DNA of 64,000 bases, from NCBI GenBank assembly GCA_964016885.1, contig OZ024742.1:368900001-368964000 (forward strand), read 5' to 3'. Positions 7,385 to 63,175 of this stretch are shown piece by piece. The stretch comes from Eledone cirrhosa. Lineage: Eukaryota. How positions within the stretch are numbered: the first letter of the stretch is position 1; every line of letters begins with the position of its first letter. A model generated the notes under the pieces. The model saw nothing but the letters and a program-made list of their open reading frames with translations. It ran no database searches and had not been told where the DNA came from. The position numbers were made by a program, and so were the translations under genes.

Positions 7385-10300
7385 TGTCACTGGTACAGCC
7401 AGTAGGTGGGGTGCCACTGGTACAGCTAGTAGTTGGGGTGTCACTCTAGATGTGCCACTGGTACAGCCAGTTGTTGGGGTGCCACTCTAGATGTGCCACT
7501 GGTACAGCTAGTAGTTGGGGTGTCACTGGTACAGCCAGTTGTTGGGGTGCCACTCTAGATGTGCCACTGGTACAGCTAGTAGTTGGGGTGTCACTGGTAC
7601 AGCCAGTAGTTGGGGTGTCACTGGTACAGCCAGTAGTTGGGGTGACACTGGTACAGCCAGTTGTTGGGGTGCCACTCTAGATGTGCCACTGGTACAGCCA
7701 GTTGTTGGGGTGCCACTGGTACAGCCAGTTGTTGGGGTGCCACTGGTACAGCCAGTTGTTGGGGTACCACTCTAGATGTGCCACTGGTACAGCCAGTAGT
7801 TGGGGTGTAATTCTAGATGTGCCACTGGTACAGCCAGTAGTTGGGGTGCCACTCTAGATGTGCCACTGGTACAGCCAGTAGTTGGGGTTCCACTCTAGAT
7901 GTGCCACTGGTACAGCCAGTAGGTGGGGTGTCACTCTAGATGTGCCACTGGTACAGCCAGTAGTTGGGGTGTCACTCTAGATGTGCCACTGGTACAGCCA
8001 GTAGTTGGGGTGCCACTCTAGATGTGCCACTGATACAGCGAGTAGCTGAGGTGACACTCTAGATGTGCCACTGATACAGCCAGTAGTTGGGGTGACACTC
8101 TAGATGTGCCACTGGTACAGCCAGTAGTTGGGGTTCCACTCTAGATGTGCCACTGATACAGCCAGTAGTTGGGGTGCCATTCTAGATGTGCCACAGATAC
8201 AGCCAGTAGTTGGGGTGTCACTCTAGATGTGCCACTGGTACAGCCAGTAGTTGGGGTGCCACTCTAGATGTGCCACAGATACAGCCAGTAGTTGGGGTGC
8301 CATTCTAGATGTCCCACAGATACAGCCAGTAGTTCGGGTGCCACTCTAGATGTGCCACTGATACAGCCAGTAGTCGGGGTGCCACTCTAGATGTGCCACT
8401 GGTACAGCCAGTAGTTGGGGTGTCATTCTAGATGTGCCACTGATACAGCCAGTAGTTGGGGTGTCACTCTAGATGTGCCACTGATACAGCAAGTAGTTGG
8501 GGTGCCACTCTAGATGTGCTACTGGTACAGCCAGTAGTTGGGGTGCCACTCTAGATGTGCCACTGGTACAGCCAGTAGTTGGGGTGTCATTCTAGATGTG
8601 CCACTGGTACAGCCAGTAGTTGGGGTGTCACTCTAGATGTGCCACTGATACAGCAAGTAGTTGGGGTGCCACTCTAGATGTGCCACCGGTACAGCCAGTA
8701 GTTAGGGTGTCACTCTAGATGTGCCACTGATACAGCCAGTAGTTGGGGTCCCACTCTAGATGTGCCACTGGTACAGCCAGTAGTTGGGGTGCCACTCTAG
8801 ATGTGCCACTGGTACAGCCAGTAGTTGGGGTGCCACTCTAGATGTGCCACTGGTACAGCCAGTAGTTGGGGTGTCATTCTAGATGTGCCACTGGTACAGC
8901 CAGTAGTTGGGTGTCATTCTAGATGTGCCACTGGTACAGCCAGTAGTTGGGGTGCCACTCTAGATGTGCCACTGATACAGCCAGTAGTTGGGGTGTCACT
9001 CTAGATGTGCCACTGATACAGCCAGTAGTTGGGGTGTCACTCTAGATGTGCCATTGGTACAGCCAGTAGTTGGGGTGCCACTCTAGATGTGCCACTGATA
9101 CAGCCAGTAGTTGGGGTGTCACTCTAGATGTGCCACTGATACAGCCAGTAGTTGGGGTGACACTCTAGATGTGCCACTGATATAGCCAGTAGTTGGGGTG
9201 ACACTCTAGATGTGACACTGGTACAGCCAGTAGTTGGGGTCCCACTCTAGATGTGCCACTGGTACAACCAGTAGTTGGGGTGCCACTCTAGATGTGCCAC
9301 TGATACAGCCAGTAGTTGGGGTGACTCTCTAGATGTGCCACTTGTACAGCCAGTAGTTGGGGTGTCATTCTAGATGTGCCACTGGTAGAGCCAGTTGTTG
9401 GGGTGCGACTCTAGATGTGCCACTGATACAGCCAGTAGTTGGGGTGTCACTCTAGATGTGCCACTGATACAGCCAGTAGTTGGGGTGTCACTCTAGATGT
9501 GCCACTGATACAGCCAGTAGTTGGGGTGACACTCTAGATGTGCCACTGATACAGCCAGTAGTTGGGGTGCCACTGATACAGCCAGTAGTTGGGGTGCCAC
9601 TCTAGATGTGCCACTGGTACAGCCAGTAGTTGGGGTGTCATTCTAGATGTGCCACTGATACAGCCAGTAGTTGGGGTGTCACTCTAGATGTGCCACTGAT
9701 ACAGCAAGTAGTTGGGGTGCCACTCTAGATGTGCCACTGGTACAGCCAGTAGTTGGGGTGCCACTCTAGATGTGCCACTGGTACAGCCAGTAGTTGGGGT
9801 GTCACTCTAGATGTGCCACTGGTACAGTCAGTAGTTGGGGTGTCACTCTAGATGTGCCACTGGTACAGCCAGTAGTTGGGGTGCCACTCTAGATGTGCCA
9901 CTGATACAGCGAGTATCTGAGGTGACACTCTAGATGTGCCACTGATACAGCCAGTAGTTGGGGTGCCACTCTAGATGTGCCACTGATACAGCCAGTAGTT
10001 GGGGTGCCACTCTAGATGTGCCACTGATACAGCCAGTAGTTGGGGTGACACTCTAGATGTGCCACTGGTACAGCCAGTAGTTGGGGTGCCACTCTAGATG
10101 TGCCACTGGTACAGCCAGTAGTTGGGGTGCCATTCTAGATGTGCCACAGATACAGCCAGTAGTTGGGGTGCCACTCTAGATGTGCCACTGATACAGCCAG
10201 TAGTTGGGGTGCCACTCTAGATGTGCCACTGGTATAGCCAGTAGTTGGGGTGACACTCTAGATGTGTCACTGGTACAGCCAGTAGTTGGGGTGCCACTCT

Positions 10301-11000
10301 AGATGTGCCACTGATACAGCCAGTAGTTGGGGTGCCACTCTAGATGTGCCACTGGTACAGCCAGTAGTTGGGGTGCCACTCTAGATGTGCTACTGGTACA
10401 GCCAGTAGTTGGGGTGCCACTCTAGATGTGCCACTGGTACAGCCAGTAGTTGGGTGTCATTCTAGATGTGCCACTGGTACAGCCAGTAGTTGGGGTGCCA
10501 CTCTAGATGTGCCACTGATACAGCCAGTAGTTGGGGTGTCACTCTAGATGTGCCACTGATACAGCCAGTAGTTGGGGTGTCACTCTAGATGTGCCACTGA
10601 TACAGCCAGTAGTTGGGGTGTCACTCTAGATGTGCCACTGATACAGCCAGTAGTTGGGGTGTCACTCTAGATGTGCCACTGATACAGCCAGTAGTTGGGG
10701 TGTCACTCTAGATGTGTCACTGGTACAGCCAGTAGTTGGGGTGCCACTCTAGATGTGCCACTGATACAGCCAGTAGTTGGGGTGCCACTCTAGATGTGTC
10801 ACTGGTACAGCCAGTAGTTGGGGTGCCACTCTAGATGTGCCACTGATACAGCCAGTAGTTGGGGTGACACTCTAGATGTGTCACTGGTATAGCCAGTAGT
10901 TGGGGTGACACTCTAGATGTGTCACTGGTACAGCCAGTAGTTGGGGTGCCACTCTAGATGTGTCACTTGTACAGCCAGTAGTTGGGGTGCCACTCTAGAT
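7385..11000. repeat. 41-bp minisatellite, about 90 copies
   Basis: Unit ctctagatgtgccactggtacagccagtagttggggtgcca, with shorter variants at the left end. Confidence 0.97.
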
Positions 11001-11160
11001 ACTGTTGCAGCCATCACCACTGGTCTCTATTTTCCATAATACATAGAAGGGTCTCGATGTAGGGATCAGTCCAGTTTTTGATGTTGTCAGACCAGTTCTA
11101 CACCGCTTCTTCACTCTCGACTGTGTCCTGAAGGATGGTATTTAGACAAGAAGTGGTGTA
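10990..11160 (-). mobile_element. RTE LINE 3'-terminal remnant between two arrays
   Basis: Minus strand translates TILQDTVE..NWSDNIKNWT..IETLL..MENRDQW, matching the RTE C-terminal pattern KTILQGTVEG..W.DNIKEWT..DR..W. Confidence 0.8.
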
Positions 11161-12048
11161 ATATAGGACCCTACCAGGCAAGGAGTTATGGTGTAATATA
11201 GGACCCTACAAGACAAGGAGTTGTGGTATAATATAGGACCCTGCCAGGCAAGGAGTTGTGGTGTAATATAGGACCCTACCAGACAAGGAGTTGTGGTGAA
11301 ATATAGGACCCTACCATGCAAGGAGTTGTGGTGTAATATAGGACCCTACAAGACAAGGAGTTGTGGTGTAATATAGGACCCTACCAGACAAGGAGTTGTG
11401 GTGTAATATAGGACCCTACCAGACAAGGAGTTGTGGTGAAATATAGGACCCTGCCAGACAAGGAGTTGTAGTGTAATATAGGACCCTACCAGGCAAGGAG
11501 TTATGGTGTAATATAGGACCCTACCAGACAAGGAGTTGTGGTGAAATATAGGACCCTACCAGGCAAGGAGTTGTGGTGTAATATAGGACCCTACAAGACA
11601 AGGAGTTGTGGTGTAATATAGGACCCTACAAGACAAGGAGTTGTGGTGTAATATAGGACCATACCAGACAAGGAGTTGTGGTGTAATATAGGACCCTACA
11701 AGGCAAGGAGTTGTGGTGTAATATAGGACCCTACCAGGCAAGGAGTTATGGTGTAATATAGGACCCTACCAGGCAAGGAGTTGTGGTGTAATATAGGACC
11801 CTACCAAGCAAGGAGTTGTGGTGACATATAGGACCCTACCAGGCAAGGAGTTGTGGTGAAATATAGGACCCTTACAGGCAAGGAGTTGTGGTGAAATATA
11901 GGACCCTACCAGACAAGGAGTTGTGGTGTAATATAGGACCCTACCAGGCAAGGAGTTGTGGTGTAATATAGGACCCTACCAGGCAAGGAGTTATGGTGTA
12001 ATATAGGACCCTACAAGACAAGGAGTTGTGGTGAAATATAGGACCCTA
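11145..12048. repeat. 35-bp minisatellite, about 26 copies
   Basis: Unit ggaccctaccagacaaggagttgtggtgtaatata. Confidence 0.97.
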
Positions 12049-13497: not shown

Positions 13498-13614
13498 AGA
13501 AACATTGCTTCATTTTTACATATCTAAGCATTAGTAAAATAACTAATAATTTCAAAAGTAATTTTTCAATTCCAATTGTTATGAACAGCAAAACATTAAT
13601 AATAATTTTGTTCC

Positions 13615-14780
13615 AAGAAATATATATACATTTCTGTGTGTGTAATATATATATATATATACACACACAGAAATATATATATATTTCTGTGTGTGTAATA
13701 TATATATATACACACACAGAAATATATATACATTTCTGTGTGTGTAATATATATATATATACACACACAGAAATATATATATATATATACACACAGAAAT
13801 ATATATACATTTCTGTGTGTGTAATATATATATATATATATACACACACAGAAATATATATATATATACACACAGAAATATATATACATTTCTGTGTGTG
13901 TAATATATATATATATAAGGCTTCTCCCTCAGAATGAAAGGCAGACTGTATGATGCGTGTATCCGAACAGCGATGTTACATGGTAGTGAGACCTGGGCGC
14001 TGAAGGTGGAAGACTTATGTAGATTAGAGAGAAACGAAGCCTGCATGCTCCGATGGATGTGTAACAGTAATATACGTGAACGACAAAGCATAAATGAATT
14101 GAGAGAGAGACTGAGCATAAGAGGAATCAAATGCCGTGTGCAGGAGAGGCGGTTGCGCTGGTATGGACATGTGATGCGTACGAAGGATGACAGCTGCATA
14201 AAAAGGTGCAGAGCACTAGAAGTTGATGGAAACCGCAGAGTGGGGAGACCCAAGATGACCTGGGATGAGGTGATAAAAGCCGACCTTACCCAATTACACC
14301 TCTCAAAGGCAATGACACACGACCGTGACATCTGGCGTCACGCAGTAATACAGAGTACCCGACTTCCCATGGGTACAAGCTGAAGCATATAGACAATATG
14401 CCCCACACCCCCCACTGCAAGGTGGTCGTGGAGGTACCACGGCAAAAAAGCACCCAGCCCACACTGTAAAGTGGACGTGTAGGCGCCACGAAAAAGCACC
14501 CAGCACTCACTGTAAATGAGGTTGGTGTTAGGAAGGGCATCCAGCTGTAGAAATCAAGCCAGATCAGTTCCTGTATGAGCAAGGCATGGTCAGCCGACCA
14601 GACACTGCCCACAACAGGACAACCCGTCTAACCCATGCTAGCGTGGAAGAACGGACGTAAAACGGTGATGATGATGATGATGATGATATATATATACACA
14701 CACACACAGAAATATATATACATTTCTATGTGTGTAATATATATATATATACACACACACAGAAATATATGGACATTTCT
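13615..14780. repeat. second block of the self-complementary TA/CA minisatellite, interrupted by an RTE
   Basis: The same unit as 12590-13065 occurs on both sides of the 13918-14687 insertion. Confidence 0.85.
13918..14687 (+). mobile_element. 5'-truncated RTE LINE with long 3'UTR and (GAT)n tail
   Basis: ORF 13934-14383 reads KGRLYDAC..MLHGSETW..RLRWYGHVMR..GRPKMTW. The 3' end is aacccatgctagcgtgg...gacgtaaaacg(atg)n. Inserted in (TA)n. Confidence 0.93.
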
Positions 14781-17572: not shown

Positions 17573-20500
17573 TGACCATACTGTAAAATGGAGGGGTAGA
17601 GAGGGCCCTTGAGTCTAGTAAGACATCCTCTCTAGTGCTGGTGGCACAAATAAAAGCACCCAGTCCATGCTGTAAAGTGGCGCTGGTGTTAGGAAGGGCA
17701 TCCAACCAGTGTATCAATGCCAAAACTCTTATCAGCACAGCAACAAATAGGAACAACAACAAAATATGAAGACGTCGCATCTCAGAGTTGCAACACTTAA
17801 TGTTGGCACTCTCAGAGGTAGATCTGCTGAAATAGCGGAGATGCTGGAGAGAAGGCAGGTGGATGTGTGCTGCGTGCAAGAGGTGAGATGGAGAGGTGCC
17901 TCTGCGAGACTAGTCGTAGGCAAGCGTCTTAGCTATAAGCTATTCTGGGTAGGTAAGGATGATGGGCTAGGGGGAGTAGGCATTTTCCTGGCTGAGAAAT
18001 GGATCAATAAGACAATAGTGGTAGTTCGAGTTAGTAATCGAATAATTAAGCTTAGATTAGTTGTAGGTAGGAGACTACTGACAATCATCTCGGCCTATGC
18101 TCCCCAAGCAGGCCTAGGCAAAGATGAGAAAGACTGCTTTTATGAGCAACTTTTGCAAACAACCGCAATGACAGAGGACGGAGACATTGTTATGCTAGCA
18201 GGAGGCTTCAATGGTCATGTTGGACAGCTCCAGGATGATTACACTGGGGTACATGGTGGGCACGGTTATGGTTCAAGAAATGAAGGAGTGAGACTTCTTG
18301 AATTTTGTGATGCGGGTACATTGACTATTTGCAACACAAACTTCCAGAAACCTGCCAATCACCTAATAACCTACAAATCTGGTGAGCACATAAGCCAGAT
18401 TGACTTCCTGCTAGTTAGGCAGCGGGACAGGCAGATAGTGTCTAATACCAAGGCATACCCTGGGGAAGAATGTACCCCACAGCATAGGTTAGTTGTTAGT
18501 GATATCTCAGTAAGCAAGAGATGGAATGAGACATATAGGAAGGTGTGGAGAAGAAAGGTCTGGAAGCTAAAAGACCTTTCACTAAAATACAAATTTAGGA
18601 AAGCCCTTCAAGATGTATATGACGAAAAAGAAGACGATTTAGAGACGTATGACATAGATAATAACTGGAATTTCTTACGTGAAAACTTGCTGCAGGCTAC
18701 TGATGAAACCTGTGGCTGGAGCAGAGCTGGTGGTGGAACAGCACAGTAGATAAGGCTATTAGAGACAAAAGACTAGCATGGAAGGCTTGGAAAAAGGGTG
18801 GGAGTAGGGAAGAATATACAGCCACTAAGAGAGAAGCTAGACGTCAGGTGTACTTAGCACGCAGGGAGGCAGAGAGTAGGAGGTTTGCCAATGTTCTGCG
18901 ACGGGAAGATCAGAGGCGTGCGGTGTTCCACATTGCAAGGCAGTGTGTCAATGCAAATCAGGATGTTGTTGGAGATAAATGTGTCCGGGATGATGCCGGT
19001 GTACTTAGTGTCACGAATGATCAGAAAAAGGAGGCCTGGAAATGTCATTATGAGAGACTGATGAATGTGGAGAACGAATGGGAGTGAGAGAAATTACCCT
19101 TGGTGGATCCGACAGAGGGACCAGCTATTGAGATTGACGAATATAGGGTCCAAGAGGCGATTAGGGAAATGAAAAATGGTAAGGCTGCCGGACCATCGGG
19201 AATAGTTGCAGAGATGCTGAAGGCATCAGGGGACGTAGGCACTAAACTGGTTGCACGCATCATCAATCAGGCTATATATGGTGGTGTCATACCCAAAGAC
19301 TGGTGCAGCAGTATTCTCATAAATTGCTACAAAGGTAAGGGGGATGCTTTGGAGAGGAGCAATTATAGGGGTATAAAACTGATAGATCAGGTTATGAAAG
19401 TGGCAGAAAGGATTTTAGCACAACTAATTAGAGAAAGGGTCAAACTAGATGAGATGCAGTTTGGTTTTGTGACTGGGAAGAGTACAACAGATGCCCTCTT
19501 CTTGGTGAGACAATTGCAAGAGAGGTTCTTAGAGAAGAATAAGCCACTATACTTAGCCTTTGTTGACCTAGAGAAGGCCTTTGATAGGGTACCTCGATCT
19601 GTCATCTGGTGGTGCCTAAGGAAGCTAGGTGTTGAGGAATGGCTTGTGAGGACAGTGCAAACTTTGTACAGAGGTACTCTCAGTAAAGTCAGGGTAGGAA
19701 TGGAGTTTAGTGAGGAATTCCAGATACATGTAGGAGTACATCAGGGTTCGGTCCTCAGCCCGCTCTTGTTTATTATAGTCCTCCAAGCCATAACAGAGGA
19801 GTTTAAGACTGGCTGTCCATGGGAACTTCTCTACGCTGACGATCTGGTTCTTATAGCATAATCAGTAGAGGAGCTAGAGAATAAATTATGGCTATGGAAA
19901 CAGCAGTTGGAAGCAAGAGGACTGAGAGTGAATATAGCTAGGACACAAGTGTTGATGAGTAAAAAAGAGGACAAAACCCTGATTCCGTCAGGGAAATGGC
20001 CATGTTCGATATGCAGAAAAGGAACTGGCATAAACTCTATAAAATGCACACAATGCAGATCCTGGGTACACAAGAAATGTAGCGGGATAGCAGGCAAACT
20101 AACAGGTAGGGAGAAATATGTATGCAGTAGATGTACAGGGAAATTAGACAGTAGAAGTCGCACTGATAGACACATTTTTCAAATGCAAGAGGGCGCTATA
20201 GAAGTGGTGGATAGCTTCCGGTACCTAGGAGATCAGATTAGCATGGGAGGAGGGTGTTCCGAGGCCATAGTATCTAGAATAAGGACGGGAGCTGTTTCCT
20301 CTGTTGATGAAGAAGGGTTTCTCCCTGCGTACAAAAGGCCGGTTGTATGATGCCTGTGTGAGGAGCGCGATGCTGCATGGTAGTGAGACATGGGCAGCAA
20401 CTTCAGAGGATATGCGACGGCTGGAGAGAAATGAGGCAAGCATGCTCCGTTGGATGTGCAGTGTAAATGTGCGTGAACGACCCAGCATAAATGTGTTGAG

Positions 20501-20793
20501 AGGGAAACTGTGTCTGAGAGGGATAGAATGTAGTGTACGGGAGAGGAGACTGAGGTGGTATGGACATGTGATGCGCATGGAGGATGACCGATGGGTGAAG
20601 AAGTGCCAGGAATTGCCAGTTGAAGGAAGACGTGGTAGAGGTAGACCACGAAAAATATGGGCGGAGGTGGTGAGAACAGACCTCAGATCATTGAAGCTCA
20701 CGGTGGAGATGACGAGGGACTGTGACGAGTGGAGAGATGCTGTGCTGAATAAGACCCGTCCCACCCTTGCTAGCAGGGAAAAGCTGACGTAAA

Positions 20794-20828
<35 letters not shown>
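17573..20828 (+). mobile_element. near-full-length RTE-clade LINE (APE + RT + PHD-like finger), disrupted
   Basis: APE motifs (TLNV, VQEVRW, SAYAPQ, SQIDF, QHRLV) at 17766-18749. RT motifs (AFVDLEKAFD, GVHQGSVLSPLLF, YADD) at 19100-19861. C-terminal RLRWYGHVMR..GRPRK and a (GAT)n tail. The 5' boundary is approximate. Confidence 0.95.
17766..20792 (+). pseudogene. disrupted RTE endonuclease/reverse-transcriptase ORF
   Basis: One ancestral ORF broken by a frameshift near 18725, stops near 19086 and 19860, and a deletion/frameshift near 20290. Confidence 0.9.
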
Positions 20829-24877: not shown

Positions 24878-25173
24878 CCGATATCCGTTAATGGTGGCTT
24901 TTCCCTGCCTCTTCGGTAACAAATATACATTTCTGAACAACGTATGCTACCATGATTGAGGTCTGCTAGAAAGCCAGTTTGTGTTCGTTCAAGACAAACA
25001 TAACCTTTTGGTTCCTTTTCAGCTAAAGATTTATTGATAACACATATGTCAGTGATTGGATCTTGCTTATGTGTTGGTTTAATAACAGTTTCATTTGTGG
25101 ATTCTTCTAGTGGTAATGGGGTTTCAGGTAGTCCAGCTACCACAAAATAATCTGCAACTCTGCGATCATCCAT
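24878..25173 (-). CDS. DENND4: first coding exon of a DENND4/Crag-family Rab GEF (N-terminal MABP region)
   Basis: [52 protein letters not shown] matches the DENND4A/B/C and Drosophila Crag N-terminus ([26 protein letters not shown]). Acceptor tcttattttag directly precedes the ATG. A phase-2 donor GG|gtaatt follows at 24877. Confidence 0.95.
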
Positions 25174-25659: not shown

Positions 25660-25995
25660 GAGGTTACTCAATAGAGTGCATAGCTCAGAGAGTCACTACA
25701 GGTAGAACCGCTACTACTCCAAATTGAGAGATATTCTGAGATATTCTAACCACATGCCCAATACTATGGGCATGTGGCTAGAATATCTCAGGAAAGAATC
25801 ACTGGACAGATTTTACGGGCAAAACCAGCTGGCAAGAGACCCAGGGGTAGATTCCGAGTAAGATGGTTGGATGGTCTTGCTTGGGGATCCAGCCAGATCA
25901 GTTGGAAATGGATGCTTCTGACAGGACCCACTGGAAGGAGTGTTTGAGGACTCTGCCCCTATGACCCTTTCAGGAATAAGTGGGAGAAGAAGAAG
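25660..25995 (+). mobile_element. RTE (Expander/Rex3-like) 3' fragment
   Basis: ESLQVEPLLLQIER..YYGHVARISQERI..GKRPRGR..RWLD, with a (GAA)n-like end. Homologous to the reverse complement of 61450-61730. Confidence 0.8.
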
Positions 25996-26770
25996 ACTCT
26001 TTCATACTCCATAGCCTTTATTTTAGGAACACACAGTACAGCGAATCACTTATAGTCAAAAGGCTAAACTTCGTTTGTAATAATACAAGCTTTTATTTTG
26101 TGGTTTATTTACTTTTACAGATACAATATTTATATTTGTTAAAGCTAGAAAACCATGTGGGCGCACACAGAAATTCACATTTATTTTTATAGATCGTGTA
26201 TACACACACATTGTTTGTAAGCAACAAACCAAATATACATAGAAAACTATGTATAAATACCAAACTTAGAATATCTACTGTCAAACCCAGAAATACCATA
26301 ATTTTATAGGTTTGCACGTTTCAAACAGTTCTCCTAGTCACAAGTTTATCCTAAAGTGCAAAAAGAAGTCATAAGTTTGTTCCTCTCTCTCTCTAGCACC
26401 ACAGTTCATGACATTGAATTAAGCAATGTTTATTAATTAGTCTCATTAGAATGTCATCAAGAGATTATAATATTCAGGAATATAGTGCCTAACTAAAACA
26501 CAGGCAACATGTAATCCATATCGGATTAGCCAGAGATGGGCGCCAGTAACACTTGTTCTACAGTTTGATTTTAAAATGTTTTTACAAAATTAAAAACAAA
26601 GGACAAATAAATGAAAGAAAAAATAACAAAACAGATAAGGAAACCGTTTGATTGGTTTTAGTTAGATTATCTAATTATTTAGATAAAGCAGTTTTATTTA
26701 TCCAGTCTTAGCATTTATTAAATTTATTTCCTTCTATGCTCATCATAAAATGGGGTTTCTCTTTAACATG

Positions 26771-28723: not shown

Positions 28724-28755
<32 letters not shown>

Positions 28756-28785: not shown

Positions 28786-28810
28786 CAAAAACCATTATTA
28801 TTATTATTAT

Positions 28811-46500: not shown

Positions 46501-49500
46501 GTGGTAGTACAGCTGCCCTGACAAAGATCACCCAGTCCACCCTGGAAGGTGGTAGGACAGGTGCCCTGACAAAGATCACCCAGTCCACCCTGGAAGGTGG
46601 TAGGACAGCTGCCCTGACAAAGATCACCCAGTCCACCCTGGAAGGTGGTAGTACAGGTGCCCTGACAAAGATCACCCAGTCCATCCTGGAAGGTGGTAGT
46701 ACAGGTGCCCTGACAAAGATCACCCAGTCCACCCTGGAAGGTGGTAGGACAGGTGCCCTGACAAAGATCACCCAGTCCACCCTGGAAGGTGGTAGTACAG
46801 GTGCCCTGACAAAGATCACCCAGTCCATCCTGGAAGGTGGTAGGACAGGTGCCCTGACAAAGATCACCCAGTCCACCCTGGAAGGTGGTAGGACAGCTGC
46901 CCTGACAAAGATCACCCAGTCCACCCTGGAAGGTGGTAGTACAGCTGCCCTGACAAAGATCACCCAGTCCACCCTGGAAGGTGGTAGGACAGGTGCCCTG
47001 ACAAAGATCACCCAGTCCACCCTGGAAGGTGGTAGTACAGGTGCCCTGACAAAGATCACCCAGTCCACCCTGGAAGGTGGTAGTACAGCTGCCCTGACAA
47101 AGATCACCCAGTCCACCCTGGAAGGTGGTAGGACAGGTGCCCTGACAAAGATCACCCAGTCCACCCTGGAAGGTGGTAGTACAGGTGCCCTGACAAAGAT
47201 CACCCAGTCCATCCTGGAAGGTGGTAGGACAGGTGCCCTGACAAAGATCACCCAGTCCACCCTGGAAGGTGGTAGGACAGCTGCCCTGACAAAGATCACC
47301 CAGTCCACCCTGGAAGGTGGTAGTACAGCTGCCCTGACAAAGATCACCCAGTCCACCCTGGAAGGTGGTAGGACAGGTGCCCTGACAAAGATCACCCAGT
47401 CCACCCTGGAAGGTGGTAGTACAGGTGCCCTGACAAAGATCACCCAGTCCATCCTGGAAGGTGGTAGGACAGGTGCCCTGACAAAGATCACCCAGTCCAC
47501 CCTGGAAGGTGGTAGGACAGGTGCCCTGACAAAGATCACCCAGTCCACCCTGGAAGGTGGTAGTACAGGTGCCCTGACAAAGATCACCCAGTCCATCCTG
47601 GAAGGTGGTAGGACAGGTGCCCTGACAAAGATCACCCAGTCCATCCTGGAAGGTGGTAGGACAGGTGCCCTGACAAAGATCACCCAGTCCACCCTGGAAG
47701 GTGGTAGGACAGGTGCCCTGACAAAGATCACCCAGTCCACCCTGGAAGGTGGTACACAGGTGCCCTGACAAAGATCACCCAGTCCACCCTGGAAGGTGGT
47801 AGTACAGCTGCCCTGACAAAGATCACCCAGTCCACCCTGGAAGGTGGTACACAGGTGCCCTGACAAAGATCACCCAGTCCACCCTGGAAGGTGGTACACA
47901 GCTGCCCTGACAAAGATCACCCAGTCCACCCTGGAAGGTGGTAGGACAGGTGCCCTGACAAAGATCACCCAGTCCACCCTGGAAGGTGGTAGTACAGGTG
48001 CCCTGACAAAGATCACCCAGTCCATCCTGGAAGGTGGTAGGACAGCTGCCCTGACAAAGATCACCCAGTCCACCCTGGAAGGTGGTAGTACAGCTGCCCT
48101 GACAAAGATCACCCAGTCCACCCTGGAAGGTGGTAGTACAGGTGCCCTGACAAAGATCACCCAGTCCACCCTGGAAGGTGGTAGGACAGCTGCCCTGACA
48201 AAGATCACCCAGTCCATCCTGGAAGGTGGTAGTACAGGTGCCCTGACAAAGATCACCCAGTCCACCCTGGAAGGTGGTAGGACAGGTGCCCTGACAAAGA
48301 TCACCCAGTCCATCCTGGGAGGTGGTAGGACAGGTGCCCTGACAAAGATCACCCAGTCCACCCTGGAAGGTGGTAGGACAGCTGCCCTGACAAAGATCAC
48401 CCAGTCCATCCTGGAAGGTGGTAGGACAGGTGCCCTGACAAAGATCACCCAGTCCACCCTGGAAGGTGGTAGGACAGCTGCCCTGACAAAGATCACCCAG
48501 TCCATCCTGGAAGGTGGTAGGACAGGTGCCCTGACAAAGATCACCCAGTCCACCCTGGAAGGTGGTAGTACAGGTGCCCTGACAAAGATCACCCAGTCCA
48601 CCCTGGAAGGTGGTAGTACAGCTGCCCTGACAAAGATCACCCAGTCCACCCTGGAAGGTGGTAGGACAGCTGCCCTGACAAAGATCACCCAGTCCATCCT
48701 GGAAGGTGGTAGGACAGGTGCCCTGACAAAGATCACCCAGTCCACCCTGGAAGGTGGTAGTACAGGTGCCCTGACAAAGATCACCCAGTCCACCCTGGAA
48801 GGTGGTAGTACAGGTGCCCTGACAAAGATCACCCAGTCCACCCTGGAAGGTGGTAGGACAGCTGCCCTGACAAAGATCACCCAGTCCATCCTGGAAGGTG
48901 GTAGTACAGGTGCCCTGACAAAGATCACCCAGTCCACCCTGGAAGGTGGTAGGACAGCTGCCCTGACAAAGATCACCCAGTCCATCCTGGAAGGTGGTAG
49001 GACAGGTGCCCTGACAAAGATCACCCAGTCCACCCTGGAAGGTGGTAGGACAGCTGCCCTGACAAAGATCACCCAGTCCATCCTGGAAGGTGGTAGGACA
49101 GGTGCCCTGACAAAGATCACCCAGTCCACCCTGGAAGGTGGTAGTACAGCTGCCCTGACAAAGATCACCCAGTCCACCCTGGAAGGTGGTAGGACAGGTG
49201 CCCTGACAAAGATCACCCAGTCCACCCTGGAAGGTGGTACACAGGTGCCCTGACAAAGATCACCCAGTCCATCCTGGAAGGTGGTAGGACAGCTGCCCTG
49301 ACAAAGATCACCCAGTCCACCCTGGAAGGTGGTAGGACAGCTGCCCTGACAAAGATCACCCAGTCCACCCTGGAAGGTGGTAGGACAGGTGCCCTGACAA
49401 AGATCACCCAGTCCACCCTGGAAGGTGGTAGGACAGCTGCCCTGACAAAGATCACCCAGTCCACCCTGGAAGGTGGTAGTACAGCTGCCCTGACAAAGAT

Positions 49501-51560
49501 CACCCAGTCCACCCTGGAAGGTGGTAGTACAGGTGCCCTGACAAAGATCACCCAGTCCACCCTGGAAGGTGGTAGGACAGGTGCCCTGACAAAGATCACC
49601 CAGTCCACCCTGGAAGGTGGTAGTACAGGTGCCCTGACAAAGATCACCCAGTCCACCCTGGAAGGTGGTAGGACAGGTGCCCTGACAAAGATCACCCAGT
49701 CCACCCTGGAAGGTGGTAGTACAGGTGCCCTGACAAAGATCACCCAGTCCACCCTTGAAGGTGGTAGTACAGCTGCCCTGACAAAGATCACCCAGTCCAC
49801 CCTGGAAGGTGGTAGTACAGGTGCCCTGACAAAGATCACCCAGTCCACCCTGGAAGGTGGTAGTACAGGTGCCCTGACAAAGATCACCCAGTCCACCCTG
49901 GAAGGTGGTAGGACAGGTGCCCTGACAAAGATCACCCAGTCCACCCTGGAAGGTGGTAGTACAGGTGCCCTGACAAAGATCACCCAGTCCACCCTGGAAG
50001 GTGGTAGTACAGCTGCCCTGACAAAGATCACCCAGTCCACCCTGGAAGGTGGTAGGACAGCTGCCCTGACAAAGATCACCCAGTCCACCCTGGAAGGTGG
50101 TAGTACAGGTGCCCTGACAAAGATCACCCAGTCCACCCTGGAAGGTGGTAGGACAGGTGCCCTGACAAAGATCACCCAGTCCACCCTGGAAGGTGGTAGG
50201 ACAGCTGCCCTGACAAAGATCACCCAGTCCACCCTGGAAGGTGGTAGGACAGCTGCCCTGACAAAGATCACCCAGTCCACCCTGGAAGGTTGTAGTACAG
50301 GTGCCCTGACAAAGATCACCCAGTCCACCCTGGAAGGTGGTAGGACAGCAGCCCTGACAAAGATCACCCAGTCCACCCTGGAAGGTGGTAGGACAGCTGC
50401 CCTGACAAAGATCACCCAGTCCACCCTGGAAGGTGGTAGTACTGGTGCCCTGACAAAGATCACCCAGTCCACCCTGTAAAGTGGTAGGACAGGTGCCCTG
50501 ACAAAGATCACCCAGTCCACCCTGGAAGGTGGTAGGACAGCTGCCCTGACAAAGATCACCCAGTCCACCCTGGAAGGTGGTAGTACAGCAGCCCTGACAA
50601 AGATCACCCAGTCCACCCTGGAAGGTGGTAGGACAGCTGCCCTGACAAAGATCACCCAGTCCACCCTGGAAGGTGGTAGTACAGCTGCCCTGACAAAGAT
50701 CACCCAGTCCACCCTGGAAGGTGGTAGTACTGGTGCCCTGACAAAGATCACCCAGTCCACCCTGTAAAGTGGTAGGACAGGTGCCATGACAAAGATCACC
50801 CAGTCCACCCTGGAAGGTGGTAGGACAGCTGCCCTGACAAAGATCACCCAGTCCACCCTGGAAGGTGGTAGGACAGCTGCCCTGACAAAGATCACCCAGT
50901 CCACCCTGGAAGGTGGTAGTACTGGTGCCCTGACAAAGATCACCCAGTCCACCCTGTAAAGTGGTAGGACAGGTGCCCTGACAAAGATCACCCAGTCCAC
51001 CCTGGAAGGTGGTAGTACAGCTGCCCTGACAAAGATCACCCAGTCCACCCTGGAAGGTGGTAGGACAGGTGCCCTGACAAAGATCACCCAGTCCACCCTG
51101 TAAAGTGGTAGGACAGGTGCCATGACAAAGATCACCCAGTCCACCCTGGAAGGTGGTAGGACAGCTGCCCTGACAAAGATCACCCAGTCCACCCTGGAAG
51201 GTGGTAGTACAGCTGCCCTGACAAAGATCACCCAGTCCACCCTGGAAGGTGGTAGTACTGGTGCCCTGACAAAGATCACCCAGTCCACCCTGTAAAGTGG
51301 TAGGACAGGTGCCCTGACAAAGATCACCCAGTCCACCCTGGAAGGTGGTAGTACAGCTGCCCTGACAAAGATCACCCAGTCCACCCTGGAAGGTGGTAGG
51401 ACAGGTGCCCTGACAAAAATCACCCAGTCCACTCTGAAAGGTGGTAGGACAGGTGCCCTGACAAAGATCACCCAGTCCACCCTGTAAGGTGGTAGTACAG
51501 GTGCCCTGTCAAAGATCACCCAGTCCACCCTGTAAGGTGGTAGTACTGGTGCCATGATGA
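43510..51560. repeat. 48-bp satellite, about 168 copies, highly homogeneous
   Basis: Unit gtcca(c/t)cctggaaggtggtag(g/t)acag(g/c)tgccctgacaaagatcaccca. Confidence 0.98.
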
Positions 51561-51855
51561 AATGCACTATCTACCCTCTAATATGGTAGTGTTGGTGCCA
51601 AGGTGAAAATCACCCAGTCTACCTTGTAAGGTACTAGTGCAGGTGCCATGAAGAAAAGCACACCCTGTTCACCCTGTAAAGTGCTAGTGCCACATTGAAA
51701 AGTATCGAGTCCATACTAAAAGGTGGAAGTGCTGGTATCACAACAAAAAGCCTCTAGTTCCCGCTATAAGAGGGTTGTGCCAGAGTCAGAATAAAATGCT
51801 GCCAGTACACTGTATTATGGTTGGTATTAGGAAGGACATCCAACTGTAGAGACCA
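51560..51855 (+). mobile_element. decayed RTE-UTR module continuous with the 48-bp array
   Basis: Degenerate units (aaaatcacccagtctaccttgtaaggt, aaaagcacaccc..ctgtaaagtg) end in ggttggtattaggaaggacatccaactgtaga. Confidence 0.75.
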
Positions 51856-52307
51856 CGCTCCTTGTATATGCTATAAAGTGTTTGGTATTAGGAAGAGTTA
51901 CCAACCCAGCCAAAACCATCTCTGCTTCTATGAACAAAAATTCTCATTTTAAAGGGTTCCTATTTAAATTAAAATCCTCCAACAGAATAGAGAATAGGAC
52001 AGTTTACAGGACAGAGGAGACTGGAGAGGACACAGGATAGGACAAAAGACAGAACAGAGGACAAATGTCATAGGATGGGACCAGACAGGACAAAATAGAC
52101 AGATGAACAGATAGAAAAGATTGAAAAATAACGTAAATTTTTAAGTTGAGGGTAAAGACATTATATTCATAGATTATCAAGAAGTGATTAAACTTTTTTA
52201 GTAGAGACAGAGCAACTTTGAGGCTAAACAAGGTTAAAAAGACACTTCAATTGTGTTGAGACTTAAATCTAACAAATATCTCAAGTAAACAAACATTCAT
52301 ATATTAC

Positions 52308-53920: not shown

Positions 53921-56900
53921 GCAAGTTTATTTCGGCCGCGGATGGCTAACATAACCCCATCCCCCTCACCTCGCCCTACGGTTCCCACCCACTAAACGCA
54001 ATCCAAAACTTCAGAGTTGGTACCATGAATGTAGGCACCTTAAAAGGTCGCGCTAACGAGGTTGTAAAAATGCTCGAACGCAAGGAGGTTGATGTTTGCT
54101 GTATCCAAGAGACCAGGTGGAGGGATTGGTCTGCTAGATTTATTGTAGGTAAAGAACGATGCTATAAGCTTTTCTGGGTGGGAAATGACAATGGGCTGGG
54201 TGGGTAGGAATCATGCTAGCAGCAAAATGGGCAGATAAGAAAATAGATGTAAATAGAGTGAACGACAGAATAATTAAAATAAGACTTGACCTAAATAGAG
54301 CTACTGTGACAGTAATATCTGCGTATGCACCCCAATCCTGACTACCTGGCGCTATGAAAGACAGATTCTATGAGACACTGATGCTCGCTACCTCCCAAAT
54401 AACCGACAGTGACTACATAATTATCGCTGGCGACCTAAATGGTCACGTTGGACAACATTGTGACAGCTATGACGGAATCCATGGAGGCTATGGGTTTGGT
54501 ACTAGAAATGAGGAAGGCTCCAGAATCCTGGAATTCCGTGACGCAAATAACCTAACTATCTGTAACACTAACTTCAAAAAACGAGAATCACTTGATCACC
54601 TATAGATCGGGGGAACACGCCAGTCAGATAGATTATATCCTTACCAGAAGACGTGACAGAGTGTCTGTTGTAAACACTAAATCCCTCCCCCATGAAGAAT
54701 GCACCTCCCAACATACTCATAGTTAGCGACCTCATAGTCAGGATGAGACGTACTCGACAACAGAGGAGGACTATCCTCAGGAGAAAAATATGGAAGCTAA
54801 AGGACCCCACAGCCAGTAATAAGTTTAAAAGCATATTACTTGATGCTTTTGACAGTAAGGAAGAGCAATTAGAGTCGTACAATATAGAGGAACAGTGGGA
54901 ATTCCTGAAAGCTAACCTGCTGAGGGCAACAGATGAAATCTGTGGCTGGAGCAGACCTATAGGCAGGAGGAGAGTAACTTGGTGGTAGAACAGTAAGGTG
55001 GAGGAGTCAATTAAGGCCAAAAAGCAGGCTTGGAAAGAATGGCGGGATGGGGGAAGTAGAGAAGACTATCAAGTGGCTAGGAGACAAGTGTACTTCGCAA
55101 GAAGGGAAGCAGAGGAAAGAAAGTTCAAGCATGTTCTACAACGCGAGGACCAAAAACGTGAGGTGTTCAGGATTGCAAGGCAATGTGTTAAGGAAAACTG
55201 TGATATTGTCGGGGAGAAGTGTGTCCTTAATGATGATGGTGTACTTGCCATCACCGATGCTGATAAGCAGGTAGCTTGGAAGTGTCACTACGAAAGGCTA
55301 CTAAATGAGGAGAATAAATGGGAGAAAGACAGTCTCCCCCACATCGATCCAATAGAGGGACCAGCAGTGCAATATGAAGGTAGTATAATAAGTAAGGCAA
55401 TCAAAGATATGAAGACAGGCAAGACGGCTGGGCCTACGGAAATAGTTGCTGAAATGCTGAAAGCATCTGGAACGGTGGGACACACTATGGTCAGCCGGAT
55501 AGTAAACCAAGTCATACAGAATGGGGTCGTACTGAAGGACTGACGTAACAGCATCATCATTAACTGCTACAAGAGTAAAGGAGATGCCCTAGATAGGGGA
55601 AACTATAGAGGCATTAAATTAATTGACCAGGTCATGAAGGTCACAGAAAAAATAATAGCGCAACTAATCAGAGAGCGAATTGATCTAGATGAAATGCAGT
55701 TCGGGTTTGTGTCAGGTAAAAGTACCACAGACGCTCTTTTCATTGTACGACAACTACAGGAGAAGTACCTAGCTAAAAGTAAACCCCTATACTTAGCTTT
55801 TGTAGACTTGGAGAAAGCCTTTGACAGAGTCCCAAGAAAACTAGGTGTTGATGAATGGCTTGTGAGAGCTATACAAGCCATGTATAAAGAAACAGTCAGA
55901 ATGGTTAGAATTATCAACGAATATAGTGAAGAGTTTAGCGTAAAAGTTGGTGTTCATCAGGGCTCCGTCCTTAGCCCCCTACTATTTATTATTGCCCTTC
56001 AGGCTATAACAGAGGAGTTCAAGACCGGCTGCCCATGGGAACTCCTATACGCAGATGATCTAACGCTCATAGCTGAATCAATGGCTGAACTAGAGAAGAA
56101 ATTCCAAACATGGAAGCATGGCCTAGAACCAAAAGGCCTTAAAGTTAACTTGTCTAAGACTAAAGTTCTAGTTTGTAGGAAGGAAAATAGGGCACCGGTC
56201 CCATCAGGGAAATGGCCATGCTCAGTGTGTAGGAAAGGAGTAGGCAGAAACTCCATTTTGTGTCCCAAATGCAAAGTATGGGTGCATAAAAGATGTAGTG
56301 GGGTCACAGGTAAGCTAACTAAGAATATAGATTTTATGTGGCCGGTGCTCTGGTGCAATAAGTAGCAGCAAGTGCCCAGAGAATACTAGCTCATTCCATT
56401 GCACAGATGGTTCTATAGAAATAGTGGACACCGTCCGTTACTTGGGTGACAAAATCAGCAGTGGTGGAGGGTGCTCTGAAAGTACAGTAGCTAGAGTCAG
56501 AACTGGGTGAAAAAAGTTCAGAGAGCTTATACCACTATTGGCCGCTAAAGGGTTCTCTCTAAAAATGAAAGGCAGGTTGTATGATGCCTGCATACGAACA
56601 GTAATGTTGCATGGCAGTGAGACCTGGGCATTGTGTGCAGAGGATATACGCAGACTGGAGAGAAACGAAGCTTGCATGCTCTGCTGGATGTGTAATAGTA
56701 ATATACGTGAACGGCAAAGCATAAATTAACTAAGTGAGAAATTAGGAATGAGAGGGATCAGATGCTGTTTACTCGAGAGAAGACTATGTTGGTACGGTCA
56801 CGTGATGCGCATGAAAGACAGCTGTATAAAAAAGTGCAGGGTGATCAAAATAGACGGTAGCCACGGAGTAGGCAGACCCAGAAAAACCTGGGACGACTTG

Positions 56901-57379
56901 ATAAATTCCGACCTCACACACTTACACCTCTCCAAGACAATGTCACTGGACCGAGATCTTTGGTGTTACACAGTAATAAAGAAGACCCGCCTTACCTAAG
57001 TGAAAAGTGAAACCTACTACAGTCAGTAGGCACCTCTAACAAATTACACCCCCGTCCCACTACCCCCACCTCATCCACACCACCCCTTTCAATGTAAACT
57101 TATGTTGGTACCACAACATCCAGTCCGAAACAAATGAGGTTGTGTAGGTGTCACGACAAAAAAACACAGTCCAAACTGTAATGTGACCGTGTAGGTAACA
57201 CGGTAAAAACCTCCCAGTCCACACTGTAAACGTGGTTGGTGTTAGGAAGGGCATCCAGCTGTAGAAAACCCGCCAGACAGTCCTATGCGAGCAAGACAAC
57301 CACTCTTTCCTCAAGTGGGAAAACTCCCGTCCAGACCCATGCAAGCGTGGAAGATGGACGTTTAAACGATGATGATGAT
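53921..57379 (+). mobile_element. near-full-length RTE LINE, disrupted, with long 3'UTR
   Basis: APE (MNVGTL, IQETRW, GDLNGHVG), RT (FVDLEKAFD, QGSVLSPLLF, YADD), Cys/His finger and WYGHVMR, with many stops and frameshifts. The 3'UTR carries the GGAAGGGCATCC module and a (GAT)n tail. Confidence 0.95.
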
Positions 57380-60012: not shown

Positions 60013-60236
60013 TTAACCCTTTAGCACTTAAACCGGCCGTATGCGGCCAGAATTATCTCACCTCTTTCTGTTCAAACTGGCCATAACTGACCCCTCATAC
60101 TGATGTTAAGGTATTGTTCTCAAAATAAATATCAAAAACTCAGATTTGATATTATGTGAGATAATTATGAGGGAGAAAGCTTTTACAACAAAAATACAGT
60201 AGTATATATAGAGTAATGTAAATGGTAATGGGTTAA
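60013..60236 (+). mobile_element. piggyBac-like (TTAA) MITE, family B
   Basis: ttaa-ccctttagc...gtaatggg-ttaa; paralog at 4739-4967. Confidence 0.72.
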
Positions 60237-60708: not shown

Positions 60709-61208
60709 ATTTAATAATAATAATTTCTTCATTTATATTTTTTTTGTTGATTTCATATAAAATAATTGTTTATTTTTAGCACAAGGCCAGCAATTACTCA
60801 GTACATTACTGGTACTTTATTTATTGGGTGTTTTAATAATAGCCCCCCCCCCCCTTCTATCATGAACTGCAATGTGAAATAAAACGTCATGTTCAAGAAC
60901 ACAATATTCCACCCTTCCAGGAAGCAAACCTACAGTCATGTTACACATTTTACCACTGTTCTGTTTCCCATCAAATCTGCCGCCCCACTACAAAGTAATG
61001 ACTACTTAGATCAAAAGAAGGTCACACATTTTTGAAAAGGGTGAAGATGATTTAATAAGCTGAGTACTTTGCAGTGAGTGACTTTATCAAGACGAGAAGG
61101 CTGAAAGATAAAGCTATAGCCCGGTGGTATTTCAATGAGGAACATAAAGGGTATACTAAATACCACCAGTTATTTTAGTCTGACACTATTGTTTCTCATA
61201 ATAATAAT

Positions 61209-61391
61209 TTTCTACTTTAGGCACAAGGCCAGCAATTACCCAGTGCATTACTGGTACTTTATTTTATCGACCCCGTAAGGATGAAAGGCAAAGTGAACCT
61301 CGGCGGGATTTGAACTCAGATCGTAAAGGGACGTAACTATGCTGGAAAGCATGGCGTCCGACCCTCTACCGATACTGCCAATCCACCGCAA
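61209..61391 (-). mobile_element. SINE family 1, full length, with flanking direct repeat
   Basis: Intact A/B boxes and core. tttctcataataataat occurs at 61192-61208 and 61392-61408; this TSD overlaps the ATT tail. Confidence 0.9.
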
Positions 61392-61449
61392 TTTCTCATA
61401 ATAATAATGGTTTCTAAAATTATCACAAGTTCACAAATTTGTGGAAAAG

Positions 61450-63175
61450 ATATCTTCTACTTCTTTGCCCACATATTTCTGAGAGGGTCATGGGGTCAGA
61501 CACTCCTTCCAGCAGGTCCTGTCTCCAACAAATCCGGCTGGATCGCTGAGCAAGACCAGCCAAGCTCAGGAATGTTATCCAACCATCTTGCTCAGGATCT
61601 ATCCCTGGATCTCCTGCCAGTTGTTTTTGCCTGTAAAATCTGTCCAGCAATTCTTTCCTGAGACAATCTAACCATATGTCCATAGTATAAGAGCTGTGAT
61701 CTCTCAATTCAGAGAAGTAGGACTGACTCTCCGGTGATTCTTTCCTGAGACATTCTAACCACATGTCCATAGTATCAGAGAAGTAGCAGCTCTACCTGGA
61801 CTGACTCTCCGGTGATTCTTTCCTGAGACATTCTAACCACATGTCCATAGTATAAGAGAAGTAGCAACTCTACCTGGACTGACTCTCCGGTGATTCTTTC
61901 CTGACACATTCTAACCACATGTCCATAGTATCAGAGAAGTAGCAGCTCTACTTGGACTGACTCTCCAGTGATTCTTTCCTGACACATTCTAACCACATGT
62001 CCATAGTATCAGAGAAGTAGCAGCTCTACTTGGACTGACTCTCCAGTGATTCTTTCCTGACACATTCTAACCACATGTCCATAGTATCAGAGAAGTAGCA
62101 GCTCTACCTGGACTGACTCTCCGGTGATTCTTTCCTGACACATTCTAACCACATGTCCATAGTATAAGAGAAGTAGCAGCTCTACCTGGACTGACTCTCC
62201 AGTGATTCTTTCCTGACACATTCTAACCACATGTCCATAGTATCAGAGAAGTAGCAGCTCTACTTGGACTGACTCTCCAGTGATTCTTTCCTGACACATT
62301 CTAACCACATGTCCATAGTATCAGAGAAGTAGCAGCTCTACCTGGACTGACTCTCCGGTGATTCTTTCCTGACACATTCTAACCACATGTCCATAGTATA
62401 AGAGAAGTAGCAACTCTACCTGGACTGACTCTCCAGTGATTCTTTCCTGAGACATTCTAACCACATGTCCATAGTATCAGAGAAGTAGCAGCTCTACCTG
62501 GAGTGACTCTCCGGTGATTCTTTCCTGACACATTCTAACCACATGTCCATAGTATCAGAGAAGTAGCAGCTCTACCTGGACTGACTCTCCAGTGATTCTT
62601 TCCTGAGACATTCTAACCACATGTCCATAGTATAAGAGAAGTAGCAGCTCTACTTGGACTGACTCTCCAGTGATTCTTTCCTGACACATTCTAACCACAT
62701 GTCCATAGTATCAGAGAAGTAGCAGCTCTACCTGGACTGACTCTCCAGTGATTCTTTCCTGACACATTCTAACCACATGTCCATAGTATCAGAGAAGTAG
62801 CAGCTCTACCTGGACTGACTCTCTGGTGATTCTTTCCTGACACATTCTAACCACATGTCCATAGTATAAGAGAAGTAGCAGCTCTACCTGGACTGACTCT
62901 CTGGTGATTCTTTCCTGACACATTCTAACCACATGTCCATAGTATCAGAGAAGTAGCAGCTCTACCTGGACTGACTCTCCGGTGATTCTTTCCTGACACA
63001 TTCTAACCACATGTCCATAGTATCAGAGAAGTAGCAGCTCTACCTGGACTGACTCTCCAGTGATTCTTTCCTGACACATTCTAACCACATGTCCATAGTA
63101 TCAGAGCTGTGATCTCTAAATTTGGAGAAGTAGCAGCTTTACCTGGAGTGACTCTCTGATCTCCAAGCTATGCAC
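61450..63175 (-). mobile_element. RTE (Expander/Rex3-like) 3' fragment expanded by an internal array
   Basis: Right flank translates VHSLEIRESLQVKLLLLQI*RSQL*YYGH. Left flank translates IERSQLLYYGHMVRLSQERIAGQILQAKTTGRRSR..RWLDNI. Confidence 0.85.
61700..63105. repeat. 78-bp minisatellite, about 18 copies
   Basis: Unit gattctttcctgacacattctaaccacatgtccatagtatcagagaagtagcagctctacctggactgactctccggt. Confidence 0.97.

What the first reader, a model, noticed from the sequence alone, without database searches (positions are those of the whole stretch)
7385..63175. Four large minisatellites appear to be in-place amplifications of RTE retrotransposon sequence
Seen: the 41-, 35-, 48- and 78-bp arrays each run collinearly into recognisable RTE sequence at their edges (detailed in separate findings). 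Together they turn a few hundred bp of LINE remnant into about 14 kb of one locus. The 35- and 78-bp arrays come from the same conserved (W/Y)YGHV.R region of two different RTE lineages, and a third RTE copy has a fold-back at that motif. Known: TE-derived satellites exist. Inference: RTE 3' regions are recurrent seeds for tandem expansion and may drive intron growth in this genome.
Basis: partly seen in the sequence, partly recalled or inferred. Interest (0 to 1): 0.72.

Follow-up and report, generated by a model that had tools for sequence, protein, structure and literature searches.

The report
LINE-born minisatellites that spread between copies
Four long tandem repeats here are built from pieces of dead jumping genes, three of them from segments that are repeated inside many other copies, and one is nearly identical to an array in a separate copy 91 kb away, so these repeats likely spread from copy to copy by DNA recombination; they are, however, only a small share of this genome's many repeats.

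Summary
Confirmed: the 41-, 35-, 48- and 78-bp arrays (13.9 kb) derive from the 3' ends of three RTE-type LINE families. But 'in place' is only part of the story. The 35-bp junction is unique to this window and sits on a short direct repeat. The other three seeds recur: family A's terminal duplication in 18 of 49 copies, family B's 99-bp junction at 64 loci, the 48-bp UTR subrepeat at about 20 sampled loci, all depleted from the interiors of the four big chromosomes. The 78-mer is a deleted 99-mer shared with a separate insertion 91 kb away (244/245 identical, unrelated flanks). Arrays within 5 Mb share variants three times more often than distant ones, while the elements' non-array ends do not. 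Best reading: inter-copy gene conversion spreads the junctions and local expansion follows. A general YGHV hotspot is not supported (hot in B, not in A), nor is RTE-driven intron growth: 5 of 77 random arrays are RTE-derived versus 18 of 385 control segments. The scan noted similar cases on other DNA of this genome. New variant of TE-derived minisatellites.

The parts
7376..12048 (-). Family-A RTE-type LINE 3' fragment (about 260 bp before expansion), 5'-truncated just upstream of the YGHV codons, holding two arrays
   Evidence: Alignment with 29 genomic copies; intact relatives are single 1,004-1,029-aa APE+RT ORFs ending WYGHV..VAP
7388..11000 (-). 41-bp array with 27-bp variants: the element's terminal VAPQ codons; the same seed is expanded in many other copies
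   Evidence: 76 41-mers and 8 27-mers among 87 spacings; 18 of 49 other copies expanded
11001..11152 (-). Unexpanded family-A core between the two arrays
11153..12048 (-). 35-bp array over the WYGHV.R codons, bounded in the parent by the short direct repeat CTTG(C/T)CT; private to this locus
   Evidence: both upstream and downstream versions of the repeat occur among the units; 10 of 10 junction matches lie in this window
43510..51557 (+). 48-bp array (168 copies, 96% match), 5'-truncated inside the array; amplified form of the 3'UTR subrepeat of family C and its SINE
51558..51865 (+). About five older degenerate 48-bp units followed by the family-C-type 3' terminus
61460..63176 (-). Family-B RTE-type LINE 3' fragment with GAA tail, holding the 78-bp array
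   Evidence: 40% to a catfish RT-protein C-terminus, E=7e-14
61720..63106 (-). 78-bp array: the genome-wide 99-bp unit minus 21 bp; same derived unit as in the insertion L032, 91 kb away, which still has 99-mers
61500..61744 (-). Terminal unit plus downstream tract, 244/245 identical to L032; inferred gene-conversion tract
   Evidence: last 34 nt of the element 26/34, flanks unrelated; best of 121 other copies 131/146 over the downstream part
25682..25996 (+). Second family-B copy with a fold-back (25736-25791) at the YYGHV codons; single event
13917..14686 (+). Family-C 3' fragment with the native two-copy 48-bp UTR subrepeat (14409-14516)
17751..20828 (+). Near-full-length family-C LINE (APE endonuclease + RT), broken by stops and frameshifts
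54011..57379 (+). Near-full-length family-C LINE (RT + PHD) with UTR subrepeat, broken
25006..25173 (-). First coding exon of the likely host gene (name DENND4 recalled); the 41/35 arrays lie downstream of it, the 48/78 arrays upstream
   Evidence: Translation; DENN-domain exons on the same strand about 240 kb to the left; splicing between them not shown

Best explanation
The four arrays are made of 3'-end segments of three RTE-type LINE families, and the recurrent ones likely spread between already inserted, dead copies by inter-locus gene conversion before expanding locally. Step 1 (inferred): a rare tandem duplication arises in one copy at a short imperfect direct repeat; the 35-bp array is such a fresh, private event. 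Step 2 (shown as sequence sharing, mechanism inferred): a copy carrying the junction serves as repair template for another copy of the family, mostly within a few Mb, and transfers the junction or whole array, even into hosts that keep only part of the unit. Step 3 (inferred): the array grows and homogenises in place by unequal exchange or slippage, giving local derivatives such as 78 from 99 and 27/41 mixtures. All steps are concentrated on small chromosomes and distal regions, where minisatellites of any origin are 4- to 18-fold denser; high recombination there is assumed, not measured. No function is indicated.
For: Window 78-bp array and L032: different 5' ends and flanks, same derived 78- and 87-bp units, 244/245 and 103/106 identity at the two array ends. 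L293 and L294 (0.9 Mb apart) share 5 derived variants in internal units, although L294's host keeps only about 20 bp of unit upstream and about 27 bp downstream. Internal units of loci within 5 Mb share 0.47 variants per pair versus 0.15 (86 and 1042 pairs, permutation P=0.0005); the elements' non-array 3' part does not (0.71 vs 0.66, P=0.37). The effect persists after dropping top pairs or sites (P=0.0005-0.04). 99-bp junction at 64 loci versus 1811 native matches; 3 of 64 on C1-C4 versus 9 of 28 native loci (P=0.0009). Family A expanded in 6 of 31 copies on C1-C4 versus 12 of 18 elsewhere (P=0.002). 48-bp arrays 2 of 21 in big-chromosome interiors versus 52 of 94 family termini (P=0.0002). 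About 9 of 30 carriers have a truncated leading unit yet full internal units. At the junction CpG, the internal copy is CA with a different terminal state in 22 of 64 loci, the reverse in 4. Carriers form no clade and show no diagnostic site (29 changes versus 33 shuffled).
Against: The conversion tests were done only for family B; for the 41- and 48-bp seeds only recurrence and position bias were shown. The family-B tree is star-like, so a master element carrying the duplication cannot be excluded. In the ten two-unit loci, leading and terminal units share only 5 variants against 47 unshared, which fits inheritance as well as conversion. At 10 of 21 loci leading and terminal units do share private variants (mean 1.05 vs 0.15 across loci; one pair of loci is a duplicate), which fits local duplication or later homogenisation. 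Direction of transfer between the window and L032 is unknown. Near-pair sharing weakens to P=0.04 when three loci and two sites are dropped. Recombination rates were not measured.
Confidence: 0.68

Rival explanations
1. A master element already carried the duplication (two 99-mers, two 41-mers, several 48-mers); retrotransposition spread it and arrays then grew in place.
For: Identical junctions without strong microhomology; truncated leading units at the native truncation rate (about 9 of 30 vs 8 of 30); CpG asymmetry; little sharing in two-unit loci. For the 48-mer, two native copies are standard (30 of 94 termini) and the window keeps old degenerate units, so this step is probably true for that seed.
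Against: Carriers, including two-unit ones, avoid C1-C4; no carrier clade or diagnostic site; does not explain the window/L032 tract or near-locus sharing.
Confidence: 0.15
2. Each array arose independently in place by slippage at the same short imperfect repeats.
For: The 35-bp junction is unique and bounded by a short direct repeat; several different junctions exist in the same family-B region (65, 88, 93, 99, 123 bp); leading and terminal units share private variants at 10 of 21 loci; 27-bp family-A units sit on a short repeat. Best account for the 35-bp array.
Against: Cannot supply full units to hosts with truncated leading units; predicts no sharing between neighbouring loci and no CpG asymmetry; contradicted by window/L032.
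Confidence: 0.12
3. The element's reverse transcriptase makes the duplication by template jumping at each insertion.
For: The family-A seed is the extreme 3' end where reverse transcription starts; two-copy insertions with normal termini exist (L002, L022, L234).
Against: Predicts no chromosomal bias and no exchange between old copies.
Confidence: 0.04
4. The shared arrays are assembly artefacts.
For: L306 and L342 look like one locus assembled twice; array lengths were not checked with long reads.
Against: Loose ends matching the 99- and 123-bp junctions appear in raw reads of another sample of the species (484 and 1043 reads), and a 123-type loose end in 19 contigs of another organism; window and L032 flanks are unrelated and their arrays differ in unit order.
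Confidence: 0.02

Closest known systems
TE-derived minisatellites in human (Ahmed and Liang 2012, PMC3389668; passages read)
   Same: Tandem repeats made from parts of TE copies, expanded by local duplication; hotspots at fixed positions of some families; most origins unexplained by flanking repeats.
   Different: Human cases mostly have two units and showed no genomic hotspots; here arrays reach 8 kb, share exact junctions at dozens of loci, are regionally biased and exchange between copies.
SINE-derived satellites of squamates (Vassetzky et al. 2023, PMC10702118; abstract, background, passages and Discussion read)
   Same: Sub-element units in arrays with parent sequence left at the ends; a few dominant unit types over many loci; subtelomeric preference; homogeneity within and between loci.
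   Different: Parent is a LINE ORF end or 3'UTR; in the parts read the paper invokes unequal recombination and concerted evolution but gives no locus-pair test of transfer between insertions.
Rsp-like spread into 1.688 clusters in Drosophila (Sproul et al. 2020, PMC7403614; abstract and one Discussion section read)
   Same: Repeat arrays colonising pre-existing repeats at new loci, with interlocus conversion or eccDNA proposed as the route.
   Different: There a foreign satellite enters another satellite by microhomology; here the landing pad is a homologous dead LINE copy and the cargo is a duplication of its own sequence.
Maize CRM1TR/CRM4TR (PMC3648361; passages read)
   Same: Tandem repeats from similar regions of related retrotransposons; gene conversion invoked; a second locus 1.4 Mb away possibly seeded by intrachromosomal conversion.
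   Different: LTR elements, centromeric, few loci, little movement between loci reported; here non-LTR, distal, dozens of loci.

Membership tests
RTE-clade LINE | Single ORF with APE endonuclease and RT (feature recalled; single ORF also stated in PMC9115989 passages) | tested here: met
   Family C: Exo_endo_phos and RVT_1 in window copies. Family A: intact relatives of 1,004-1,029 aa with both domains, up to 69% identical. Family B: only the ORF's C-terminal part was examined.
RTE-clade LINE | 3' end in short tandem repeats rather than poly(A) (recalled) | tested here: met
   A ends in (TGA)n, B in (GAA)n, C in (GAT)n.
RTE-clade LINE | RT phylogeny groups with named RTE elements | not tested
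   No hit or 83 carried a clade name; the RTE label rests on architecture and recalled motifs.
RTE-clade LINE | 48-bp array's parent is a LINE rather than a SINE sharing the tail | tested here: inconclusive
   No ORF or SINE head adjoins the array in the window or in 20 loci examined (one has a separate SINE upstream); the subrepeat is native to family-C UTRs and a SINE.
TE-derived minisatellite | Unit aligns to a TE better than shuffled controls | tested here: met
   0 of 1540 shuffled random-sample units hit the references.
TE-derived minisatellite | Array overlaps a TE copy and is collinear with its remaining sequence | tested here: met
sSat-like satellites (SINE-derived, squamates) | Parent is a SINE | tested here: not met
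   41, 35 and 78 units come from a LINE ORF end; 48 undecided.
sSat-like satellites (SINE-derived, squamates) | Recurrent unit types with distal or subtelomeric bias | tested here: met
   telomeres themselves were not mapped.
Satellite spread by interlocus conversion (Rsp-like type) | Arrays at separate pre-existing sites share derived sequence not shared by their flanks | tested here: met
   (family B only).
Satellite spread by interlocus conversion (Rsp-like type) | Empty orthologous sites in a relative; eccDNA intermediates | tested here: inconclusive
   Contigs of a second organism gave no piece spanning either flank; eccDNA could not be tested with these tools.

The most novel reading that the evidence does not exclude
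Dead LINE copies form a network of landing pads through which a tandem-duplication junction spreads like a homing element: once made, it is copied by conversion into neighbouring copies of the family, even tiny fragments, and then expands, so that minisatellite birth at these sites is contagious rather than independent.
Probability: 0.55. Interest if true: 0.68.

Novelty: new variant of a known kind. Interest (0 to 1): 0.5.

Why it matters
How minisatellites start is an open question: one human survey could explain only 6% of TE-derived cases by known routes (PMC3389668). Here parent, junction and dozens of replicate loci are all visible, so 'born independently', 'inherited from a master' and 'copied between loci' can be told apart, and the data favour copying for at least one family. 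That makes ectopic conversion among old LINE copies measurable. It does not make RTEs the engine of intron growth: arrays arise from all kinds of sequence in this genome.

Tried and rejected
RTE enrichment among array seeds: rejected at this sample size (5 of 77 arrays vs 18 of 385 control segments). The 77 include about 12 arrays of one locus, and the library held only families A, B and C; units matching any dispersed repeat were 17 of 77 versus 150 of 385 controls. General YGHV hotspot: not seen in family A. Recurrent fold-back: one exact match only; diverged cases would be missed. Hairpin as seed: family-A end z=-1.6, family-C UTR z=-0.4, 35-bp region z=+1.6; the family-B piece folded was the downstream part, not the unit. 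Carrier subfamily: no clade or diagnostic site, low power; 46 of 65 carrier rows had a usable 3' part. Conversion limited to the junction: no clear gradient along the unit. Orthologous unexpanded alleles: laying contigs on two flanks gave only dispersed-repeat pile-ups. Pfam gave nothing for the ORF C-termini. One search's leading-unit test had an offset error and was redone; one search's family-B references included flanks and were fixed. Literature: six searches listed no paper on LINE-derived minisatellites in cephalopods; the O. vulgaris repeat annotation (PMC13282606, passages) has 0 occurrences of 'satellite'. Subscription papers and supplements were not seen.
Full report
Observation. 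TRF finds the four arrays where stated: 41 bp with 27-bp variants (7388-11000), 35 bp (11153-12048), 48 bp (43510-51557) and 78 bp (61720-63106), 13.9 kb in all. The window lies in the last 10 Mb of a 379-Mb contig of a 3.0-Gb genome. That the animal is an octopod comes from earlier notes and recall, not from a test. About 18 kb of other arrays in the window match no RTE reference.

Parents. Three LINE families are involved. Family A (41/35): 29 other copies align through the window remnant; the 35-mer is the WYGHV.R codons and the 41-mer the terminal VAPQ codons before a (TGA)n tail. Intact relatives are single APE+RT ORFs of about 1,020 aa. Family B (78 and the fold-back) ends in (GAA)n. Family C has near-full copies in the window with APE, RT and PHD matches and a two-copy 48-bp subrepeat in its 3'UTR, also carried by a SINE. 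The RTE label rests on architecture and recalled motifs; no tree with named references was made. Units match parents beyond shuffles.

35-bp array. In the parent the unit is bounded by CTTGCCT and CTTGTCT, and both versions occur in the array. All 10 exact matches to its junction lie in this window.

41-bp array. Among 49 distinct other family-A copies (29 by similarity, 25 by an anchor pattern, 5 duplicates dropped), 18 have a terminal duplication, mostly 41 or 27 bp; 8 of the 25 anchor-picked copies do. Only one of the 49 has an array over YGHV, so this family's hotspot is its end. Expanded copies are 6 of 31 on C1-C4 and 12 of 18 elsewhere (P=0.002).

48-bp array. The window copy keeps about five degenerate units and a family-C-type terminus on its 3' side and starts inside the array. 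About 20 other loci have the same layout, none with an adjoining ORF or SINE head among 20 examined. Its majority unit is at most 40/48 identical to theirs, so the 8-kb expansion is local. These arrays avoid big-chromosome interiors (2 of 21, counted, versus 52 of 94 termini). The seed was already a repeat in the parent.

78-bp array. It is a 99-bp unit lacking 21 bp. The 99-bp junction matches at 64 loci against 1811 native matches; 0 of 30 anchor-picked copies on C1 carry it. Carriers are 3 of 64 on C1-C4 versus 9 of 28 native loci (34 matches, tandem ones merged; P=0.0009) and cluster on C6, C12, C15 and C27. A separate insertion 91 kb away (L032) has a different 5' end and unrelated flanks but the same 78- and 87-bp derived units, 244/245 identity over the terminal unit and 146 bp beyond, and 103/106 in the leading unit; the last 34 nt of the elements match only 26/34. 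That is the pattern of a conversion tract between two dead copies.

Genome-wide test. Internal units of carriers within 5 Mb share 0.47 derived variants per pair versus 0.15 for distant pairs (49 loci, P=0.0005); the non-array 3' part shows no such effect (P=0.37). With 56 chromosome-placed loci and several exclusions P ranges from 0.0005 to 0.04. L293 and L294 share a five-variant haplotype although L294's host is a fragment of about 45 bp. About 9 of 30 carriers have truncated leading units but full internal units. The junction CpG is asymmetric, 22 versus 4 of 64. Carriers form no clade in a star-like tree. Against a single story: leading and terminal units share private variants at 10 of 21 loci, but two-unit loci share only 5 against 47, which a duplicated master would also give. 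Junction-type loose ends occur in raw reads of another sample and in contigs of another organism.

Base rate. In 140 random 10-kb stretches TRF covers 24%; 77 minisatellite arrays cover 110 kb. Five derive from A, B or C, which make up 6.4% of non-repeat DNA; 18 of 385 control segments hit the same references. RTE seeds are therefore not over-represented at this sample size, and arrays of any origin are 4- to 18-fold denser outside big-chromosome interiors. Four RTE-derived arrays in one distal window fit this background. The 41/35 arrays probably lie in an intron of a DENN-domain gene; the 48/78 arrays lie upstream of its first coding exon.

Comparison. TE-derived minisatellites with positional hotspots are known in human (PMC3389668, passages), subtelomeric SINE-derived satellites in squamates (PMC10702118, abstract, background and Discussion), satellite spread into existing repeats in Drosophila (PMC7403614, abstract and one section) and conversion-driven retrotransposon-derived repeats in maize (PMC3648361, passages). 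RTE elements are reported in octopus (PMC9115989, passages). Six searches listed no paper on LINE-derived minisatellites in cephalopods. Earlier scan notes on other parts of this genome propose recurrent RTE seeds and copying between sites; I had noted copying as an idea but ranked it low, and those notes prompted the tests and two of the papers. They are not independent support. Their motif-hotspot claim holds here for family B only.

Verdict. Origin confirmed; mechanism revised to rare birth, spread between copies (likely, shown for family B) and local growth; no function and no special role in intron growth. New variant of a known kind; interest 0.5.

Noticed in passing
window 53158-53920 and 57377-59926: Related 21-bp and 12-bp GATAACAGTAA-type arrays flank the family-C copy at 54011-57379; the 12-bp array starts right at its tail.
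   Followed up: no
window 616-4730 and 4739-4960: 33-bp array of 4.1 kb abuts a dispersed element that recurs at 60020-60236; no RTE match.
   Followed up: partly
window 33799-42180, 23023-24857, 42543-43393, 32740-33175: Further large arrays (18/38 bp, 24 bp, ACC, 31/45 bp); the 18-, 24- and 31-bp units were tested and had no RTE match.
   Followed up: partly
window 29085-30383 (+): 432-codon open frame with a zf-RVT match (E=3e-5), a LINE fragment of another clade.
   Followed up: no
window 5018-5330, 12111-12300, 13305-13498, 28563-28993, 61200-61429: Several copies of a dispersed element of about 190 bp.
   Followed up: no
window 63657-63995 (-): SINE-like element with a tRNA-like head (recalled) sharing the family-C 3' tail and one 48-bp subrepeat.
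   Followed up: partly
L006 395-1403 (C24) and L233 (C1): The same 42-bp family-A unit, about 330-370 nt from the 3' end, is amplified 24- and 30-fold on two chromosomes.
   Followed up: partly
G000 C21:16.9 Mb, C22:24.4 Mb, C24:27.5 Mb; L047, L058, L059, L306: A second recurrent family-B junction gives 123-bp arrays, in 3 of 28 subsampled native-pattern loci.
   Followed up: partly
L091-L230 (140 random 10-kb stretches from 23 contigs): TRF covers 24% of the sample; six stretches are one array end to end; minisatellite bases per 10 kb are 236 in big-chromosome interiors, 1000 on smaller chromosomes and 4152 in the distal 25 Mb.
   Followed up: yes
L178 1-1742 and L135 5537-6071: Family-B arrays of other registers (78 and 64 bp) that begin at or near the copy's 5' truncation point, as does the window's 35-bp array.
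   Followed up: no
L306 (C12) and L342 (C342): Apparently one locus present twice in the assembly.
   Followed up: partly
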